Origin: Escherichia coli
GTDB taxonomy: Bacteria > Pseudomonadota > Gammaproteobacteria > Enterobacterales > Enterobacteriaceae
Length of the DNA: 64,000 nt
Assembly (NCBI RefSeq): GCF_029227855.1
Contig: NZ_CP074358.1
Direction: 5' to 3' (one strand)
The translations under genes were made by a program, and so were the position numbers. The notes under the pieces are model-generated. The model was not told the DNA's origin and searched no databases. It worked only from the letters and a program-made list of their open reading frames with translations. Positions 4,799 through 12,012 of the stretch are shown piece after piece. The stretch's first letter is position 1. The number at the start of each line of letters is the position of its first letter.

Positions 4799-5107
4799 GT
4801 GACTCACATGACAAAAACAGTATCAACCAGTAAAAAACCCCGTAAACAGCATTCGCCTGAATTTCGCAGTGAAGCCCTGAAGCTTGCTGAACGCATCGGT
4901 GTTACTGCCGCAGCCCGTGAACTCAGCCTGTATGAATCACAACTCTACAACTGGCGCAGTAAACAGCAAAATCAGCAGACGTCTTCTGAACGTGAACTGG
5001 AGATGTCTACCGAGATTGCACGTCTCAAACGCCAGCTGGCAGAACGGGATGAAGAGCTGGCTATCCTCCAAAAGGCCGCGACATACTTCGCGAAGCGCCT
5101 GAAATGA
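4799..5107 (+). CDS. IS3 OrfA (transposase N-terminal HTH part)
   Basis: 102 aa, helix-turn-helix and leucine-zipper-like C-terminus ([19 protein letters not shown]); inside the IS3 ends. Confidence 0.9.
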
Positions 5108-5970
5108 AGTATGTCTTTATTGAAAAACATCAGGCTGAGTTCAGCATCAAAGCAATGTGCCGCGTGCTCCGGGTGGCCCGCAGCGGCTGGTATACGTGGT
5201 GTCAGCGGCGGACAAGGATAAGCACGCGTCAGCAGTTCCGCCAACACTGCGACAGCGTTGTCCTCGCGGCTTTTACCCGGTCAAAACAGCGTTACGGTGC
5301 CCCACGCCTGACGGATGAACTGCGTGCTCAGGGTTACCCCTTTAACGTAAAAACCGTGGCGGCAAGCCTGCGCCGTCAGGGACTGAGGGCAAAGGCCTCC
5401 CGGAAGTTCAGCCCGGTCAGCTACCGCGCACACGGCCTGCCTGTGTCAGAAAATCTGTTGGAGCAGGATTTTTACGCCAGTGGCCCGAACCAGAAGTGGG
5501 CAGGAGACATCACGTACTTACGTACAGATGAAGGCTGGCTGTATCTGGCAGTGGTCATTGACCTGTGGTCACGTGCCGTTATTGGCTGGTCAATGTCGCC
5601 ACGCATGACGGCGCAACTGGCCTGCGATGCCCTGCAGATGGCGCTGTGGCGGCGTAAGAGGCCCCGGAACGTTATCGTTCACACGGACCGTGGAGGCCAG
5701 TACTGTTCAGCAGATTATCAGGCGCAACTGAAGCGGCATAATCTGCGTGGAAGTATGAGCGCAAAAGGTTGCTGCTACGATAATGCCTGCGTGGAAAGCT
5801 TCTTTCATTCGCTGAAAGTGGAATGTATCCATGGAGAACACTTTATCAGCCGGGAAATAATGCGGGCAACGGTGTTTAATTATATCGAATGTGATTACAA
5901 TCGGTGGCGGCGGCACAGTTGGTGTGGCGGCCTCAGTCCGGAACAATTTGAAAACAAGAACCTCGCTTAG
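5104..5970 (+). CDS. IS3 OrfB (transposase catalytic DDE part; expressed as OrfAB fusion by -1 frameshift)
   Basis: 288 aa with DDE/rve integrase core (WAGDITYL..., HTDRGGQY..., E in SFFHSLKVE). Confidence 0.9.
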
Positions 5971-6223
5971 GCCTGTGTCCATATTACGTGGGTAGGATCA
6001 GTTTGCATAAAAACGCAGCTATGTTGGGAGTAAAAGCACTGCGGTTATCACGAGAACTGAGAATGTTATGTGGCCTCCCTCTGCACGGCCTTTCCGATAC
6101 ACTATCGCCAACGAGGTTGGTATTGTTGAAAGCCAGAGGTAAAACACTCCAAAAGGAGTACGAAATGGTAAAGAAGTCTAAAAAGACCGAGCAAGAGATT
6201 GAGGATTTCATAAAGGGGACATC

Positions 6224-7015
6224 ATGAGTGGCCCACAATTGCTTTCCCTGCCTGGTTCTTTTTTAACGCCTCCGGCAACATTACCTGTTGCCATTGATTA
6301 CCCGGCTGCGCTGGCACTACGTCAGATGGCACTTGTGCAGGGCGAATTACCAAAATATCTGTTGGCGCCGGAGATCAGCGCCCTGCTCCGCTATGTACCG
6401 GATCTGCACCGCAAAATGTTGCTGGCCACCCTGTGGAACACGGGCGCACGTATAAACGAAGCGCTGGCGCTGACGCGGGGAGATTTTTCACTGGCGCCGC
6501 CATATCCGTTCGTACAGCTGGCCACGCTCAAACAACGGACTGAAAAAGCGACCAGAACGGCAGGCCGTGTCCCTGCTGGCAGTCAGGTGCATCGCCTGGT
6601 TCCCCTGTCCGATACACAATACGTCAGCCAACTGCAGATGATGGTGGCCACGCTGAAAATCCCACTGGAGCGCAGAAACAAACGAACCGGAAGAATGGAG
6701 AAGGCGCGCATCTGGGAAATCACCGACCGCACAGTTCGCACCTGGCTGAATGAAGCTGTAGAGGCCGCTGCGGCCGACGGCGTGACGTTCTCTGTTCCGG
6801 TTACCCCACATACTTTCCGCCATTCCTACGCGATGCATATGCTGTATGCTGGTATTCCGCTGAAGGTGCTGCAGAGCCTGATGGGGCACAAGTCGATTAG
6901 TTCGACAGATGTGTACACGAAGGTGTTTGCGCTGGATGTGGCTGCACGGCACCGGGTGCAGTTTTCGATGCCTGAGTCCGATGCTGTCACAATGCTGAAA
7001 AACAGACACGCATAA
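6224..7015 (+). CDS. resD: Tyrosine site-specific recombinase, ResD-like plasmid multimer resolvase
   Basis: C-terminal catalytic region with HTFRHSYAMHM...LMGHKSISSTDVYTKV (R..H..R..Y tyrosine recombinase signature). Confidence 0.8.
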   Translation: MSGPQLLSLPGSFLTPPATLPVAIDYPAALALRQMALVQGELPKYLLAPEISALLRYVPDLHRKMLLATLWNTGARINEALALTRGDFSLAPPYPFVQLATLKQRTEKATRTAGRVPAGSQVHRLVPLSDTQYVSQLQMMVATLKIPLERRNKRTGRMEKARIWEITDRTVRTWLNEAVEAAAADGVTFSVPVTPHTFRHSYAMHMLYAGIPLKVLQSLMGHKSISSTDVYTKVFALDVAARHRVQFSMPESDAVTMLKNRHA

Positions 7016-7152
7016 GTCACAAATCATAATTATGAATTGTGATTTATTCTATAAAAGAAGAGACCACTGCAATATGTGATCTCTTGTATGCAAGGGTGCT
7101 TAAACAGTGTGAATTCACAAGTGTGATTTCATAAGTAATAACTTCTTGATTA

Positions 7153-7428
7153 TTACGTTAGTGTTTTTAAGTATTGCTCAAGGGCTACTCTGACGATGGC
7201 ACTTACATTTTTTGGATCTTTACCATTGCGTTTATTCCTCAATGCCAGATCTTCTATTGTGACAAGCATGCTTTCACCAAGAGAGATTGTCGTCCGACAT
7301 TGTTTTTCTGGTTCGGGTTTTTCCGGCGCGCCGTATGGTTTATCCGCAAGGCGCTGAGCCAGAGCCTCTGCTTGTTCTACCGTAACTGCAGCTCTGTTTA
7401 ATGCTTGCTGGCTGGGTTTCTTCACCAT
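7153..7428 (-). CDS. Small centromere-binding protein of a type Ib partition system (ParG / small-ParB-like, 91 aa)
   Basis: Immediately downstream of and overlapping the ParA gene; RHH-like C-terminus (TTISLGESMLVTIEDLALRN...). Confidence 0.6.
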   Translation of the reverse strand: MVKKPSQQALNRAAVTVEQAEALAQRLADKPYGAPEKPEPEKQCRTTISLGESMLVTIEDLALRNKRNGKDPKNVSAIVRVALEQYLKTLT

Positions 7429-8066
7429 GGGCCAAATACCTCATTCATTAAATGTTCAATTTCTGCTCTGGCTGCTGTATTGTTCGTTTCTACTACACCG
7501 GTGCCGTTGCTCATGCAATCGCGATAGACTTTTCTGAAACAAATAACTGAATCCAGGACTTGAATTGTTGGGAATTCTTCAAGATATTCAAGGAATTCTT
7601 TTCTCTCATTTCCCCTCAAAACCGGATTGGTTGTTGCCATACTTTGTAAACAATAAACCTTAAGTTCCGGGTTAAGGTTACGCATTGCGTCTATCTGTTG
7701 TTCTAGTTCTGTAAGAGTATCCAGATCTGGTTGAGAACACTGTAGTGGCGCAATTATTTGATGTGCGACAACTCCACTCGTTATGAATTCCTTTGAGTTT
7801 CTTCCTGCGACATCCACTATTACATCATCGAACTTTTCATTCAGAGCCTGTAGTGTTTGTGTCAGGTTATCAAATTTCTCAACAAGGGTTATTGCTGGTA
7901 ACAGTCCTGCAGCTTCTCGTTCTGCATGATGTTTTGCGGCTGTTCGTTGTAGATCTCCGTTTAACAGGCAGACTTCCCTTCCTTTATTTGCGAGAGCAAT
8001 AGCCAGGTTTGATGCAATGGTAGTTTTCCCTGAACCACCTTTGTTCCCACCAACTACAGTAATCAT
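7422..8066 (-). CDS. parA: ParA-family partition ATPase (small, ParF-like, about 214 aa)
   Basis: Deviant Walker A GGNKGGSGKTT; start moved to MITVVGG (ATG at 8066 with gagg RBS) rather than the longer ORF-track start. Confidence 0.85.
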   Translation of the reverse strand: MITVVGGNKGGSGKTTIASNLAIALANKGREVCLLNGDLQRTAAKHHAEREAAGLLPAITLVEKFDNLTQTLQALNEKFDDVIVDVAGRNSKEFITSGVVAHQIIAPLQCSQPDLDTLTELEQQIDAMRNLNPELKVYCLQSMATTNPVLRGNERKEFLEYLEEFPTIQVLDSVICFRKVYRDCMSNGTGVVETNNTAARAEIEHLMNEVFGPW

Positions 8067-8084
8067 TGCAACCTCATAAATGTG

Positions 8085-8290
8085 ATGTGTGAAGTATGAT
8101 GATATTTTGACACGGTAACCTGATGTGTCAATATGCATTCATATTTATGAAGTATGAAATATGAAGTGTGTCATATGATGTAATAAATATTACTTGTGTT
8201 TTGTGATTTCATAACTATGATAGTTCTCAAATTGAGTATTACCTTGCAACCAGAAACAGTTATTTACTCAGATTGAGTATTTAAGGGGCT
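8085..8290. repeat. Iteron-rich intergenic region between divergent par operons (candidate shared centromere/promoter region)
   Basis: Repeated atgaagt(a/g)tg and tgtgatttcataa motifs between the divergent parA and parM starts. Confidence 0.5.
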
Positions 8291-8294
8291 ATAG

Positions 8295-9266
8295 ATGAAC
8301 GTATACTGCGATGATGGTTCAACAACAATCAAGTTGGCATGGAATGACAATGGGAAAATCTGTAAGTCGTTGTCGCAAAACTCATTTCGTCATGGATGGA
8401 AGGTTGACGGGTTAGGGATTCGCCAGACATTTAACTATGAACTGGATGGTAAAAAATACACGTATGATGAAGTTAGCAACCAATCTATTCTTACGACTCA
8501 TATTGAGTATCAATATACGGATGTTAACCTGTTAGCTGTGCATCACGCTTTACTGAATAGTGGATTAGCGCCTCAGCCTGTATCATTGACTGTGACTTTA
8601 CCTATCAGTGAGTTCTACACGAAAGAGTGTCAAAAAAATGAACTCAACATTCAGCGTAAAATTGAGAATTTAATGAGGCCGATTCGTCTTAATAAAGGCG
8701 ATGTTTTCACCATTGAACACGTTGATGTGATGCCTGAATCATTGCCAGCTGTGTTTTCTCGTCTGGTCATGGATAAAGTTGGTCAGTTCGAAAAATCGCT
8801 GGTAGTTGATATTGGCGGCACTACGCTTGATGTTGGTGTTATCGTTGGTCAATTTGACTCTGTAAGTGCCATTCATGGTAATTCTGGCATTGGTGTGTCT
8901 TCAGTTACGAAAGCTGCAATGAGTGCATTGCGCATGGCATCCAGTGATACCAGTTTCCTCGTTGCAGATGAATTGATTAAACGTCGTAATGATCCGGATT
9001 TTGTTCGGCAGGTTATAAATGACGAAACAAAAACTGATCTGGTCCTTAATACCATTGAGGGGGCTATTGCCAGTCTGGGGGAGCAAGTAGTCAATGAGCT
9101 CGGTGATTTTCATCATGTGAATCGTGTTTATGTTGTCGGTGGTGGGGCCCCGTTGATCTATGGTTCGATAAAAACGGCATGGCACCATCTTGGGCAAAAA
9201 GTAGTGATGATGGAGTCGCCACAGACAGCACTGGTTGAAGCTATCGCGGCTTTCAAAGAGGAGTAA
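8295..9266 (+). CDS. parM: Actin-like partition ATPase ParM/StbA
   Basis: N-terminal DDGSTTIKLAW and DIGGTTLD motifs of ParM/actin fold; 323 aa. Confidence 0.9.
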   Translation: MNVYCDDGSTTIKLAWNDNGKICKSLSQNSFRHGWKVDGLGIRQTFNYELDGKKYTYDEVSNQSILTTHIEYQYTDVNLLAVHHALLNSGLAPQPVSLTVTLPISEFYTKECQKNELNIQRKIENLMRPIRLNKGDVFTIEHVDVMPESLPAVFSRLVMDKVGQFEKSLVVDIGGTTLDVGVIVGQFDSVSAIHGNSGIGVSSVTKAAMSALRMASSDTSFLVADELIKRRNDPDFVRQVINDETKTDLVLNTIEGAIASLGEQVVNELGDFHHVNRVYVVGGGAPLIYGSIKTAWHHLGQKVVMMESPQTALVEAIAAFKEE

Positions 9267-9270
9267 TATT

Positions 9271-9663
9271 GTGGACGATGAACGGAAAAGGAAAAAATTC
9301 ACACTTTATCTGCATCCGGAAAAAGCTGCAGACTTTCAAACTTTGGAAGCGATAGAGTCCGTTCCGCGTTCTGAGCGTGGTGAGCTGTTCCGGAATGCAT
9401 TTATTTCTGGAATGGCGTTACACCAACTTGATCCTCGCCTGCCTGTATTGCTGACTGCCATTTTGAGCGAGGAGTTTTCAGCAGATCAGGTTGTAACCTT
9501 ACTCAGTCAGACGACTGGATGGAAGCCTTCTCAGGCCGATATCAGAGCTGTGTTGACTGAACTCGGTGCTTTGCAATCTGCTGAAAAAATGCCTCCTTCT
9601 GCTACTGATTCGGTGCAGGAGGCAATGAATGATGTGCGCCTTAAAATGCAAAAATTATTCTGA
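9271..9663 (+). CDS. parR: ParR/StbB centromere-binding adaptor
   Basis: Small basic ORF directly after parM; in-frame GTG at 9271 chosen just after the parM stop (ORF-track ATG at 9235 would overlap parM by 32 nt). Confidence 0.65.
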   Translation: MDDERKRKKFTLYLHPEKAADFQTLEAIESVPRSERGELFRNAFISGMALHQLDPRLPVLLTAILSEEFSADQVVTLLSQTTGWKPSQADIRAVLTELGALQSAEKMPPSATDSVQEAMNDVRLKMQKLF

Positions 9664-9674
9664 TATATCAGAAT
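9657..9674. repeat. Perfect 18-bp palindrome attctgatatatcagaat containing the stop codons of both convergent genes (parR and impB)
   Basis: Read directly; TGA at 9661-9663 (+) and TGA at 9670-9668 (-) are symmetric within the palindrome. Confidence 0.8.
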
Positions 9675-10939
9675 GAAGCAATGGGGATCTCAGTCCATTG
9701 TGTTGTATACGAAGGCGAGAGCATTTCCCGTTTCATTTGCCATTCAGGGGCGGTTCCTCGCCCCGCAAACCACACTTTCCCTTTTCCCGACTGGTTCAGT
9801 TCATCGAGTGTTTTCATTAACTTTTCACTGTTTTTACGGGGCTGGATTTCATCAAATAATCCCGGCTGCGCTATACCCGATGGTGTGAAATCAGCCAGCA
9901 TGACTCCTGCCTTCATATAGCGGTACCCTTCACGCCAGACATGGTTTAAGGCTCTGCATGCGGCGGCAATAATGTCCCGGCTGTCCTGTGTGGGCAATGG
10001 AAGCTTTTCCACAGCGGCATTGCTGTAACAGGGTTCTTTTACTGCAAAGGGGGATGTCCGTACAAATGTCGTCACCTGCCGGCAATACTGACGCTCCCCA
10101 CGTAGTTTCTCTGCGGCCCGCTCTGCATACTGAACAACAGCCTGGTGCATGGCATCTTTGTCTGTGATTCGTTCACCAAAACTGCGACTACAGACAATCT
10201 GCTGTTTTGCCGGTGGTGCTTCTTCCAGGGATATGCAGGACTCGCCGTTGAGTTCGCGTACCGTACGCTCAAGAATGACGCTGAAGTTTTTCCGGATGAA
10301 TGCCGTGTTAGCCTGCGCCAGCTGCAGTGCTGTGTTAATACCCAGCGCATTCAGCTTTTCCGTCAGTCTGCGTCCTACTCCCCAGACCTCACCAACTGGC
10401 TGCAGCCCCAGTAGCTTCAAGGTCCGATTACGGTTTTCTGCCGTCAGCGCGACCACTCCGGAAAACTGTGGCCATTGCTTTGTTGCCCACTGTGCACTTT
10501 TAGCCAGCGTTTTTGTAGGCGCAATGCCCACCCCCATGGTGAGTCCTGTCCAGCTCTTTACCTGTTCCCTGAGCTGATGACCAAAAAACTCCGGAGAGAT
10601 GCAATGATTTATCCCCCGCAAATCAATAAACATTTCATCAATTGAGTAGGGCTCAACTGCGGGAGAAAGCGACTCCAGAACAGCCATGACCCGTTGGCTC
10701 ATGCTGTGGTACAGCGCATAATTGCTGGAAAATACATGTATTTTCTTCTCCAGGCGCATCTGTCTCACCTGAAACCAGGGCTGCCCCATTCTGATGCCAA
10801 GGGCTTTTGCCTCCGGGCTGCGCGCGATCACACAGCCATCGTTATTGCTGAGTACGATGACCGGTTCGTTGCGAAGGTCCGGGCGGAAAACTTTTTCACA
10901 TGAGGCGTAGAAACTGTTGATATCAGCCAGTGCAAACAT
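9668..10939 (-). CDS. impB: Y-family error-prone DNA polymerase catalytic subunit (UmuC/MucB/ImpB family)
   Basis: N-terminus MFALADINSFYASCE...VIVLSNNDGCVIARS, typical UmuC/DinB fold; 423 aa. Confidence 0.9.
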   Translation of the reverse strand: MFALADINSFYASCEKVFRPDLRNEPVIVLSNNDGCVIARSPEAKALGIRMGQPWFQVRQMRLEKKIHVFSSNYALYHSMSQRVMAVLESLSPAVEPYSIDEMFIDLRGINHCISPEFFGHQLREQVKSWTGLTMGVGIAPTKTLAKSAQWATKQWPQFSGVVALTAENRNRTLKLLGLQPVGEVWGVGRRLTEKLNALGINTALQLAQANTAFIRKNFSVILERTVRELNGESCISLEEAPPAKQQIVCSRSFGERITDKDAMHQAVVQYAERAAEKLRGERQYCRQVTTFVRTSPFAVKEPCYSNAAVEKLPLPTQDSRDIIAAACRALNHVWREGYRYMKAGVMLADFTPSGIAQPGLFDEIQPRKNSEKLMKTLDELNQSGKGKVWFAGRGTAPEWQMKREMLSPSYTTQWTEIPIASF

Positions 10940-11376
10940 CAGCGTAACTCCCGCGTCCTGTGTATCACGTGAGTGACAACACCAAAAATACAGATGTTTT
11001 CCGGATACAGTGTGCGGAATTCCGGGCTGTCTGAAACCGGCTCCAGTGCCGGGCGTGGGCGCAACAGCAGTCGTTTGACGGTGAACTCACCGTCGATCTC
11101 AGCGATAACGATGTCCCCGTGTTGTGGTTTTTCGGCCCTGTCCACTACCAGCAGATCACCATTCTGCACGCCAGCCTGGTTCATCGATTCACCGCTGGCG
11201 CGCAGAAAGAAGGTGGCTGCAGGTCTGCTGATGCAATAGCTGTTCAGATCCAGTTCCTGCTCAGCATAATCAGTGGCAGGCGAAGGAAAACCGGCCTGGC
11301 AACGATCGGCAAACAACGGTCGCACGTAACTGTCATCGCCTGAAGGGTCAGCCGGACGGTGATAAACGGTACTCAT
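10939..11376 (-). CDS. impA: UmuD/MucA/ImpA-like LexA-type S24 peptidase accessory subunit
   Basis: 145 aa; S24 self-cleaving peptidase motifs (…AGFPSPA… SM… VVDR… GDIVIAEIDGEFTVKRL). Confidence 0.9.
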   Translation of the reverse strand: MSTVYHRPADPSGDDSYVRPLFADRCQAGFPSPATDYAEQELDLNSYCISRPAATFFLRASGESMNQAGVQNGDLLVVDRAEKPQHGDIVIAEIDGEFTVKRLLLRPRPALEPVSDSPEFRTLYPENICIFGVVTHVIHRTRELR

Positions 11377-11621
11377 GCTGCAGGCAGCCAGCTGTCGTCC
11401 TGCCAGATTTCTTCCAGCAGAGACAGGATACGTTCTTTATCCTTGTCGTTGCGGGCTCCTGTGACAGATACAGACGGGGCGCTGCCCTGGTCAATACGCA
11501 GCCAGATTTCCGGGTAGTGTGGTTTCAGACGTTGTTCGATTTCATTCTGTAGCGCCTGAAGTGTGCCTGATTTGAGGTTTTTTGTGCTCTGGCGGTCGAA
11601 AAGAATTTCAATGCGGATCAT
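11373..11621 (-). CDS. impC: ImpC-like small protein, first gene of impCAB operon (82 aa)
   Basis: Start moved to MIRIEILFDR (ATG 11621, ggaga RBS); overlaps impA start; position and size match ImpC. Confidence 0.7.
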   Translation of the reverse strand: MIRIEILFDRQSTKNLKSGTLQALQNEIEQRLKPHYPEIWLRIDQGSAPSVSVTGARNDKDKERILSLLEEIWQDDSWLPAA

Positions 11622-11644
11622 GTTCTCATCTCCCTTTTCTTTTG

Positions 11645-11660
11645 CTGTATGTATATACAG
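11645..11660. promoter_or_regulatory. LexA (SOS) box CTGTATGTATATACAG upstream of impC
   Basis: Matches CTGT-N8-ACAG consensus, about 25 bp upstream of impC start. Confidence 0.75.
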
Positions 11661-12012
11661 TATTCTAATAACTGAATTCACACAGTCAAATGTCCTTATT
11701 GTGACTAAAAAACGCTCAGCTCTCTGAGTGTGTGCCTGTATGCCTGCTGTGGACTGCTGTGTCCAGCTTATCCACAGCATTATGCGCACGGTTCTGTGGA
11801 CAAAATACCTGGTTACCCAGGCCGTGCCGGCACGTTAACCGGGCTGCATCCGATGCAAGTGTGTCGCTGTTGCCGGCCTCCTCACCCGGTCACGTTTCGT
11901 CGTTCCTCCTCCACGCGCTGCGGCTTCGGGGCCGCACCTGCATTCGTATGCGGTCGCCCGGTTACAGGTGCGGCACGGCCTGATGGAGGCCGCATGTAAG
12001 AGGAGAATTCCC

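What the first reader, a model, noticed from the sequence alone, without database searches (positions are those of the whole stretch)
7153..9663. Divergent double partition locus (type Ib ParA/small-ParB leftward, type II ParM/ParR rightward) sharing an iteron-rich region
A small ParA (Walker A GGNKGGSGKTT) with an overlapping 91-aa RHH-like partner is transcribed leftward. An actin-like ParM with ParR is transcribed rightward. The ~200 bp between them carries repeated atgaagt(a/g)tg and tgtgatttcataa motifs. The arrangement resembles the pB171 par1/par2 double locus.
Basis: partly seen in the sequence, partly recalled or inferred. Interest (0 to 1): 0.3.

Follow-up and report, generated by a model that had tools for sequence, protein, structure and literature searches.

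The report
pB171-type double plasmid partition locus
This is an intact copy of the well-studied pB171 double partition locus, two plasmid-segregation machines sharing one centromere region, which sits on about one in seven completely sequenced E. coli genomes, so it is real but ordinary.

Summary
Window 7153-9663 encodes, leftward, a 214-aa Walker-type ParA and an overlapping 91-aa ribbon-helix-helix ParB. Rightward it encodes a 323-aa actin-like ParM and a 130-aa ParR. The two pairs are separated by 228 bp.

This does not merely resemble pB171 par1/par2. It is an allele of that locus:
- ParR is 126/130 identical to the crystallised pB171 ParR (PDB 2JD3).
- Contigs encoding that exact ParR carry ParB 91/91, ParA 213/214 and ParM 320-321/323 identical to the window, with spacers of the same length.

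The repeats resolve into two kinds:
- ParB-type heptads have a T(A/G)TGA core in 7-bp register. There are 13 in 8074-8223 (parC1) and 9 in 7017-7133 (parC2), against about 4 per kb in the window overall.
- Two copies of CTCA(A/G)ATTGAGTATT lie 41 bp apart just upstream of parM. They match the published "two 10-bp direct repeats" bound by ParR.

- parC2 lies outside the given coordinates (7016-7152).
- 'tgtgatttcataa' occurs once in each centromere, not twice in the spacer.
- parR starts at GTG 9271.

The locus covers at least 80% of the query in 981 PLSDB plasmids and in 734 of 5,426 complete E. coli genomes. It is already known and of low interest.

The parts
7017..7044 (.). Distal ParB-type heptad cluster (TCACAAA TCATAAT | TATGAAT TGTGATT; two leftward and two rightward units forming an 18+18-nt palindrome), immediately after the integrase stop codon. 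Probably the outer part of parC2.
   Evidence: Four T[AG]TGA cores lie in exact 7-bp register. Palindrome I5 is 89% complementary. Assignment to parC2 is inferred: the same 74-bp segment also occurs beside the integrase in about 520 plasmids without par2.
7058..7085 (-). Terminator-like hairpin followed by a T run. It is the candidate terminator of the parAB transcript and lies between the two parC2 heptad clusters. It is convergent with the integrase gene.
   Evidence: 10-pair stem, then CTTTTATAGA. G+C-rich hairpins occupy the equivalent position in distant homologues L003 and L004.
7108..7135 (.). parB-proximal parC2 heptad cluster (TGTGAAT TCACAAG TGTGATT TCATAAG, alternating orientation).
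   Evidence: (family D2). The Enterobacter and Edwardsiella homologues have 4 to 8 heptads at the same place, e.g. TTCATAC x6.
7153..7428 (-). parB: 91-aa ribbon-helix-helix centromere-binding protein and autorepressor of par2.
   Evidence: Pfam RHH_1 lies above its cut-off. It is 91/91 identical in loci carrying the exact pB171 ParR. The predicted DNA-reading strand CRTT(I/V)SL is invariant in homologues of 74-84% identity. The exact sequence was seen on at least 1000 contigs.
7422..8066 (-). parA: 214-aa type Ib deviant-Walker-A partition ATPase (KGGSGKTT), with no N-terminal DNA-binding domain.
   Evidence: NF041546 ParA_partition 1e-33, below the equivalog cut-off. The closest solved structures are type Ib ParF/ParA. 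It is 213/214 identical to pB171-allele loci. The start at 8066 follows GAGG and agrees with RefSeq.
8072..8225 (.). ParB-binding part of parC1: three heptad clusters (8072-8101, 8137-8180, 8202-8222) that flank and overlap the par2 promoter and reach the candidate par1 promoter.
   Evidence: It holds 13 T[AG]TGA cores in 7-bp register and in-register double heptads. The blocks are conserved against a 75%-identical homologue. Substitutions among alleles are mostly A/G at heptad position 2.
8104..8131 (-). Candidate par2 promoter P2 (TTGACA, 16 nt, TG-CAAAAT), reading towards parA between heptad clusters.
   Evidence: 10 of 12 matches, extended -10. Both hexamers are retained in L003. It was not mapped here.
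8194..8221 (+). Candidate par1 promoter P1 (TTGTGT, 16 nt, TATGAT), overlapped by the third ParB heptad cluster.
   Evidence: Read from the sequence and inferred. The block ATAAATATTACTTGTGTTTT...ATTTCATA..TATGA is conserved in L003. It fell below the scan's threshold.
8226..8281 (+). ParR-binding part of parC1: two direct repeats CTCA(A/G)ATTGAGTATT (8226-8240 and 8267-8281), 41 bp start to start, ending 14 bp before the parM ATG.
   Evidence: family D6; two exact copies, 0.12 expected. They are invariant in six pB171-allele loci. [quoted passage not shown]
8295..9266 (+). parM: 323-aa actin-like filament-forming ATPase of par1.
   Evidence: Pfam StbA_N 1.7e-64 and ParM C-terminal domain 8.4e-44. 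It is 43% identical to R1 ParM over 291 residues. It is 320-321/323 identical to pB171-allele loci.
9271..9663 (+). parR: 130-aa centromere-binding adaptor of par1, with a GTG start.
   Evidence: Pfam Plasmid_stab_B. It is 126/130 identical to PDB 2JD3, pB171 ParR; the differences are F10Y, L101S, A104V and Q127K. The start matches RefSeq.

Best explanation
The region is a functional-looking allele of the pB171 double partition locus on an F-type conjugative plasmid. The mechanisms below are established for pB171; they are inferred for this copy, which was not tested.

par2 (type Ib):
- ParB dimers use their ribbon-helix-helix domain to bind arrays of 7-bp units with core T(A/G)TGA.
- The arrays lie upstream of parA (parC1) and downstream of parB (parC2).
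- The resulting partition complexes stimulate the ATPase of nucleoid-bound ParA-ATP.
- Plasmids follow the receding ParA and end up evenly spaced over the nucleoid.
- The same heptads bracket the parA promoter, so ParB autoregulates parAB.

par1 (type II):
- ParR binds the two ATTGAGTATT repeats just upstream of parM.
- It forms the helical ParR/parC scaffold, which captures the ends of ParM-ATP filaments.
- Their growth pushes sister plasmids apart.
- ParR bound there represses parMR.

Cross-talk: the third ParB heptad cluster overlaps the candidate parM promoter. ParB is therefore expected to dampen par1 as well. This step is inferred from the sequence and from my recollection of Ringgaard et al. 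2007, which I could not read here.
For: Shown here:
- Gene content, order and family membership.
- 97% identity of ParR to 2JD3. The literature ties 2JD3 to pB171.
- Loci encoding the exact pB171 ParR differ from the window by 0, 1 and 2-3 residues in ParB, ParA and ParM, and have equal spacer lengths.
- Heptad density is about 15-20 times background at exactly two places, both flanking parAB.
- The ParR repeats are significant and invariant.
- A promoter-like site for parA sits between heptad clusters, and a terminator-like hairpin follows parB.
- Comparative support: in plasmids 70-75% identical, ParB stays 74-84% identical with an unchanged predicted recognition strand, and the same T[AG]TGA heptads recur on both sides.
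- In those same plasmids ParR falls to 31-58% identity, and the Edwardsiella locus has different repeats upstream of parM.
- All four ORFs are intact, and the three checked (ParA, ParB, ParM) are exact matches to sequences seen on at least 1000 contigs each.

From the literature:
- pB171 has dual repeat arrays upstream and downstream of its par operon (PMC7602700).
- ParB of pB171 is an RHH protein with two parC sites (PMC2441792).
- par2 constructs carrying parC1, parA, parB and parC2 stabilise mini-R1 and space plasmids evenly over the nucleoid (PMC4270457).
Against: - No function was tested here.
- The pB171 record itself (AB024946/NC_002142) is not in the accessible collections. Identity to pB171 for ParA, ParB, ParM and the centromeres therefore rests on loci chosen because they encode the exact crystallised ParR, not on the type plasmid.
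- The primary papers defining parC1, parC2 and the promoters could not be read. The promoter positions, the cross-repression step and the published repeat counts are thus inference or memory.
- My recollection is that the ParB repeats were published as 6-bp units. What I see is a 5-bp core at 7-bp spacing.
- The distal heptad cluster (7017-7044) also occurs next to the integrase in plasmids lacking par2. It may not be a working part of parC2.
Confidence: 0.93

Rival explanations
1. Only one of the two systems is active in this copy. The other would be a decaying passenger, for example with a mutated centromere or promoter, so the locus would work as a single partition system.
For: - The spacer differs from pB171-allele loci at 6-12 of 228 positions. 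That is a higher rate than in the flanking genes.
- ParR carries four substitutions relative to 2JD3.
- Redundancy could relax selection on one half.
Against: - All four ORFs are full length. The ParA, ParB and ParM sequences are each seen on at least 1000 contigs.
- The spacer substitutions are mostly A/G changes at the degenerate heptad position and keep the T[AG]TGA core.
- The ParR repeats are unchanged in all six compared loci.
- The two-system arrangement is conserved down to 70% nucleotide identity in other genera. That argues both halves are under selection.
Confidence: 0.05
2. The leftward pair is not a partition system. On this view it is a MipZ-like positioning ATPase with a CopG-type transcriptional regulator, as the RefSeq product names suggest, and the repeats are simple operator sites.
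For: - RefSeq calls the ATPase 'division plane positioning ATPase MipZ' and the small protein 'hypothetical protein' or 'CopG family transcriptional regulator'.
- The best Pfam hit by E-value is MipZ, covering residues 2-52 only.
- ParA scores below the NCBIfam ParA_partition cut-off, 116.6 against 180.
Against: - The MipZ hit covers only the P-loop region.
- The full-length best matches are ParA_partition over residues 7-209 and the type Ib partition ATPases ParF/ParA in the PDB.
- The proteins are 99.5-100% identical to those in loci encoding the exact pB171 ParR. The pB171 par2 system is an experimentally established partition system (PMC4270457).
- More than 20 phased heptads at two sites flanking the operon is a centromere-like layout, not a minimal operator.
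Confidence: 0.01
3. The distal heptad palindrome (7017-7044) belongs to the neighbouring ResD-like tyrosine recombinase module, for example as a recombinase core site or part of its 3' end. On this view it is not part of parC2, and the working parC2 is only the four or five heptads next to parB.
For: - The 74-bp segment 7016-7089 is found in 1513 plasmids, whereas the parB-proximal segment is found in only 991.
- In pSMS35_130 it follows the same integrase and is then followed by colicin M immunity genes, with no par2.
- It is an almost perfect palindrome (I5), a shape typical of recombinase core sites.
- Distant homologues have heptads only between the terminator hairpin and parB.
Against: - Its four units match the ParB heptad core exactly and sit in exact 7-bp register. 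That is very unlikely by chance.
- The par-less plasmids could simply retain a remnant left when par2 was replaced.
- From memory, pB171 parC2 was described with about 18 repeats. That number would need the whole 137-bp spacer.
Confidence: 0.25

Closest known systems
pB171 par1/par2 double partition locus (E. coli EPEC plasmid pB171; Ebersbach & Gerdes 2001; Ringgaard et al. 2007)
   Same: - Same gene order and orientation (parB, parA leftward; parM, parR rightward).
- ParR is 126/130 identical to the crystallised pB171 ParR.
- ParB, ParA and ParM are 100%, 99.5% and 99% identical to loci encoding that ParR.
- There is a shared parC1 between the operons and a second ParB site downstream of parB.
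- Two 10-bp ParR repeats lie upstream of parM.
   Different: - It is an allelic variant only: four ParR substitutions (F10Y, L101S, A104V, Q127K), one in ParA and two or three in ParM.
- The 228-bp parC1 has 6-12 point changes and the 137-bp parB-integrase spacer has 6-7.
- It sits on a different F-type backbone. An IS3-family element lies upstream of the integrase where related loci have ccdAB.
- Direct alignment to the pB171 record could not be done.
R1 parMRC (type II partition system)
   Same: - An actin-like ParM, 43% identical over 291 residues.
- A small RHH ParR encoded downstream.
- Direct repeats upstream of parM that serve as both centromere and operator.
   Different: - R1 parC has ten 11-bp repeats flanking the promoter (from my own knowledge). 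Here there are only two repeats of a different sequence.
- R1 has no divergent parAB partner.
pSM19035 delta/omega and TP228 ParF/ParG (type Ib systems with RHH centromere-binding proteins)
   Same: - A small Walker ATPase without an N-terminal DNA-binding domain.
- An RHH protein with a presumably flexible N-terminal tail.
- Centromeres built of short units in direct and inverted orientation. Omega also reads 7-bp heptads (from my own knowledge).
- ParF and TP228 ParA are among the closest solved structures to this ParA.
   Different: - Sequence similarity is low: ParA to ParF scores E about 3e-7, and ParB has no detectable PDB relative.
- The heptad sequence is different.
- Those systems are not paired with a type II system.
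R27 (IncHI1) double partitioning modules and other plasmids with two par systems
   Same: Two partition systems of different types are carried together on one low-copy plasmid (cited in PMC13245405).
   Different: The proteins are different. As far as I recall, R27 does not have a single shared centromere region between divergent operons; this was not tested here.

Membership tests
pB171 par1/par2 double locus | Divergent operons parA-parB and parM-parR separated by a short shared cis-acting region (parC1) | tested here: met
   parB 7153-7428(-), parA 7422-8066(-), a 228-bp spacer, parM 8295-9266(+), parR 9271-9663(+).
pB171 par1/par2 double locus | ParR sequence matches pB171 ParR | tested here: met
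   126/130 identical to PDB 2JD3. PMC3074162 identifies 2JD3 as pB171 ParR.
pB171 par1/par2 double locus | ParA, ParB and ParM sequences match those of pB171 | tested here: inconclusive
   The pB171 record was not retrievable. By proxy, six contigs encoding the exact 2JD3 ParR have ParB 91/91, ParA 213/214 and ParM 320-321/323 identical to the window.
pB171 par1/par2 double locus | ParB-binding repeat arrays both upstream of parA (parC1) and downstream of parB (parC2) | tested here: met
   13 and 9 T[AG]TGA cores in 7-bp register at 8074-8223 and 7017-7133, the two densest sites in 64 kb. The published description of dual arrays is in PMC7602700. Binding itself was not tested.
pB171 par1/par2 double locus | [quoted passage not shown] | tested here: met
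   ATTGAGTATT occurs within 15-nt repeats at 8226-8240 and 8267-8281. The published feature is quoted in PMC9426499. Binding itself was not tested.
pB171 par1/par2 double locus | Each half stabilises an unstable replicon; ParA oscillates or redistributes over the nucleoid | not testable with these tools
   This needs plasmid-loss assays and microscopy. It is published for pB171 par2 (PMC4270457).
Type Ib partition system (ParA Walker ATPase + RHH ParB) | Small ParA (about 200-230 aa) with deviant Walker A KGGxxGK[ST] and no N-terminal HTH domain | tested here: met
   214 aa. The Walker A motif KGGSGKTT starts at residue 9, so there is no room for an N-terminal domain. ParA_partition aligns over residues 7-209.
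Type Ib partition system (ParA Walker ATPase + RHH ParB) | Small centromere-binding protein with a ribbon-helix-helix fold | tested here: met
   Pfam RHH_1 over residues 45-88, 21.7 bits against a 20.5 cut-off. The margin is narrow. No structure prediction was run and no PDB relative was found.
Type II partition system (ParMRC) | Actin-fold ParM ATPase followed by a ParR adaptor, with the centromere upstream of parM | tested here: met
   StbA_N and ParM C-terminal domains. R1 ParM matches at E 2e-75. Plasmid_stab_B ParR. The repeats lie upstream of parM.

The most novel reading that the evidence does not exclude
The 74-bp segment 7016-7089 carries four perfectly phased ParB-type heptads plus a hairpin. 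It persists next to the ResD-like integrase in roughly 500 plasmids that lack par2, such as ColBM-type IncF plasmids like pSMS35_130. It might there act as an orphan centromere. That would let these plasmids be partitioned in trans by ParAB from a co-resident pB171-type plasmid, or make them exert partition incompatibility against it. This would be a hidden layer of interaction among F-type plasmids.
Probability: 0.08. Interest if true: 0.35.

Novelty: already known. Interest (0 to 1): 0.08.

Why it matters
As a discovery it matters little, because pB171 par1/par2 has been a model partition system since 2001. Three practical points come out of the check.

- The locus is very common. It covers at least 80% of the query in 734 of 5,426 complete E. 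coli genomes and in 981 PLSDB plasmids, including Salmonella and Klebsiella plasmids.
- Standard annotation hides it. ParA is labelled 'division plane positioning ATPase MipZ' and ParB 'hypothetical protein'. No NCBIfam model matches ParB or ParR.
- The comparison with distant homologues gives a clean sequence-level picture of the two centromere codes: a conserved ParB heptad and a diverging ParR repeat.

These points could help annotate partition specificity and predict partition incompatibility among F-type resistance and virulence plasmids.

Tried and rejected
- **pB171 record:** I tried to fetch it under AB024946, NC_002142 and NC_002142.1. It is not in the collections.
- **Primary papers:** I tried to read Ebersbach & Gerdes 2001 (PMC64986) and Ringgaard et al. 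2007 (JBC). Neither is held. Full-text searches for parC1/parC2 found only one modelling paper, which names the constructs but does not print the repeats. One search failed on syntax.
- **PDB searches:** ParA and ParB have no close solved relatives. There is only distant ParF/ParA for ParA and chance-level hits for ParB.
- **Longest ORFs:** I considered them as the true genes (parA from ATG 8138, 238 aa; parR from TTG 9235, 142 aa) and rejected them. The 8138 start would place the heptads and the promoter inside the gene. RefSeq and the crystallised ParR begin at 8066 and 9271.
- **Promoter between the ParR repeats:** I looked for one (TTGCAA at 8244) and found no acceptable -10 hexamer at 15-19 bp. 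The better candidate lies upstream (TTGTGT-16-TATGAT), but it is unproven.
- **Distal heptad cluster:** I considered that it might be chance. I rejected this on its exact 7-bp register, but its functional assignment remains open.
Full report
**What is there.** The interval holds four intact genes in two divergent pairs.

- parA runs leftward at 7422-8066 and encodes 214 aa beginning MITVVGGNKGGSGKTT.
- parB runs leftward at 7153-7428 and encodes 91 aa. Its ATG overlaps the parA stop within ATGGTGA.
- parM runs rightward at 8295-9266 and encodes 323 aa.
- parR follows four bases later, from GTG 9271 to 9663, and encodes 130 aa.

Pfam supports all four assignments. ParA is a MinD/ParA-class P-loop ATPase. 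ParB hits RHH_1 just above its gathering score. ParM hits StbA_N at 1.7e-64 plus the ParM C-terminal domain. ParR hits Plasmid_stab_B at about 1e-29.

The mechanically longest ORFs start at ATG 8138 for parA and TTG 9235 for parR. These are not the real starts. A GAGG Shine-Dalgarno sequence precedes ATG 8066. RefSeq annotates 214 and 130 aa on a 100%-identical plasmid. The crystallised ParR also begins at the GTG position. The spacer between parA and parM is therefore 228 bp (8067-8294).

**It is the pB171 locus, not merely like it.**

- ParR matches one PDB entry, 2JD3, at E 2.5e-78 and 126/130 identity. The differences are F10Y, L101S, A104V and Q127K.
- PMC3074162 states that 2JD3 is pB171 ParR.
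- The pB171 record itself could not be fetched. I therefore looked up contigs that encode exactly the 2JD3 sequence.
- Six such loci all show the same layout. Compared with the window, ParB is 91/91, ParA 213/214 and ParM 320-321/323 identical.
- In those loci the parA-parM spacer and the parB-integrase spacer have the same lengths as here (228 and 137 bp). They carry 6-12 and 6-7 point differences.
- ParM is 43% identical to R1 ParM. ParA's nearest solved relatives are the type Ib ATPases ParF and TP228 ParA.

- The core occurs 13 times in 8074-8223 and 9 times in 7017-7133. The window as a whole averages about 4 per kb on both strands.
- These are the two densest 150-bp stretches in the 64 kb. 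The next best holds 4.
- Upstream of parA the units form three clusters: 8072-8101, 8137-8180 and 8202-8222.
- Downstream of parB there are two clusters, 7108-7135 and 7017-7044. A terminator-like hairpin at 7058-7085 separates them.
It occurs once in each centromere (8202 and 7122), not twice in the spacer.
- The downstream array is the equivalent of pB171 parC2.

- CTCA(A/G)ATTGAGTATT occurs at 8226-8240 and 8267-8281, 41 bp apart, ending 14 bp before the parM ATG.
- Shuffles predict 0.12 matches.
- These repeats are unchanged in all six pB171-allele loci. Many of the spacer substitutions are A/G changes at the second heptad position, which keep the core.

**Comparative support.** Plasmids from Enterobacter hormaechei (75% nucleotide identity) and Edwardsiella tarda (70%) keep the whole arrangement: integrase, parB, parA, parM, parR.

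- Their ParB proteins are 84% and 74% identical to the window's, with an invariant CRTT(I/V)SL segment.
- Both carry T[AG]TGA heptads upstream of parA and between parB and a G+C-rich hairpin. The Edwardsiella plasmid has TGTGATG x7 and TTCATAC x6.
- Their ParR proteins are only 58% and 31% identical.
- The Edwardsiella locus has different repeats upstream of parM (TTTATCTC x3).

A conserved reader with a conserved site, and a diverged reader with a diverged site, is what one expects if ParB reads the heptads and ParR the longer repeats.

**Regulatory signals.**

- A strong promoter-like site for parA lies on the minus strand at 8131-8104 (TTGACA, 16 nt, TG-CAAAAT). It sits between heptad clusters, and both hexamers are kept in the Enterobacter homologue.
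- For parM the best candidate is TTGTGT-16-TATGAT at 8194-8221. It lies in a block conserved in that homologue and is overlapped by the third heptad cluster.
- That position would give ParB a hold on par1 expression, as the title of Ringgaard et al. 2007 ('regulatory cross-talk') suggests.
- This promoter fell below the scan's threshold, and I could not read the paper. The step is inference.

**Mechanism.** I take the mechanism to be that established for pB171. It is shown in the literature and inferred for this copy.

- ParB-heptad complexes at parC1 and parC2 stimulate nucleoid-bound ParA-ATP. Plasmids become evenly spaced over the nucleoid (PMC4270457).
- ParR on its two repeats forms the helical scaffold seen in 2JD3 (PMC5016525). 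That scaffold couples the plasmid to growing ParM filaments.

**Distribution and context.**

- The 2.7-kb locus covers at least 80% of the query in 981 PLSDB plasmids, mostly conjugative ones from Escherichia, Salmonella and Klebsiella.
- It does the same in 734 of 5,426 complete E. coli genomes, almost always on plasmids.
- The window is an F-type conjugative plasmid. Downstream lie impCAB-like genes, leading-region genes and tra genes.
- ParA, ParB and ParM are exact matches to sequences each seen on at least 1000 contigs.

**Open point.** The 74 bp at 7016-7089 (distal heptads plus hairpin) occur in 1513 plasmids, whereas the parB-proximal segment occurs in only 991.

- In pSMS35_130 the segment follows the same integrase and is then followed by colicin M genes.
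- Either this is a remnant of parC2 left when par2 was replaced, or the palindrome belongs to the integrase module.
- The exact heptad register favours a ParB site. Only a footprint would settle it.

**Verdict.** The feature is already known and extremely common, so interest is low.

Noticed in passing
window 7016-7089; L002 4017-4090: A 74-bp segment (four phased ParB-type heptads forming a palindrome, plus a terminator-like hairpin) is present in 1513 PLSDB plasmids. The adjacent parB-proximal DNA is present in only 991. About 500 plasmids therefore keep the segment beside the ResD-like integrase without par2; in pSMS35_130 colicin M immunity genes follow it.
   Followed up: partly
window 8497-8511: A third near-copy of the ParR repeat (CTCATATTGAGTATC, 2 mismatches, core ATTGAGTAT intact) lies inside parM, about 230 bp downstream of the second repeat. 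It could be chance or an extra ParR site.
   Followed up: no
window 7153-8066 and 9271-9663: Public annotation obscures this model system. RefSeq names ParA 'division plane positioning ATPase MipZ' and ParB 'hypothetical protein'. No NCBIfam model hits ParB or ParR, and ParA scores below the ParA_partition cut-off (116.6 against 180).
   Followed up: yes
window 6224-9663; L003 1604-5000; L004 1550-5176: The five-gene block (tyrosine recombinase rightward, parB and parA leftward, parM and parR rightward) is conserved as a unit in Enterobacter and Edwardsiella plasmids at only 70-75% nucleotide identity. This suggests a long-standing 'stability island' combining a likely multimer resolvase with two partition systems.
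   Followed up: partly
window 5104-6276; L006 410-1008: Loci carrying the exact pB171 ParR have ccdA-ccdB immediately upstream of the integrase, as in F. In the window, homology to them begins only at 6276, inside the integrase gene. An IS3-family transposase ORF (5104-5970) lies upstream, so the ccdAB addiction module appears to be missing at this position.
   Followed up: partly
window 9663-11789: A convergent impCAB/umuDC-like operon (Y-family polymerase 9668-10939, UmuD-like 10939-11376, DinI-like upstream) ends only 4 nt from the parR stop codon. No terminator-like structure was detected between the two.
   Followed up: no
window 8067-8294 compared with L006-L011 2797-3024: Among near-identical alleles the shared centromere spacer varies more (3-5%) than the flanking genes (1% or less). 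The changes are concentrated at the A/G position of the heptads, as if heptad identity drifts freely between TATGA and TGTGA.
   Followed up: partly
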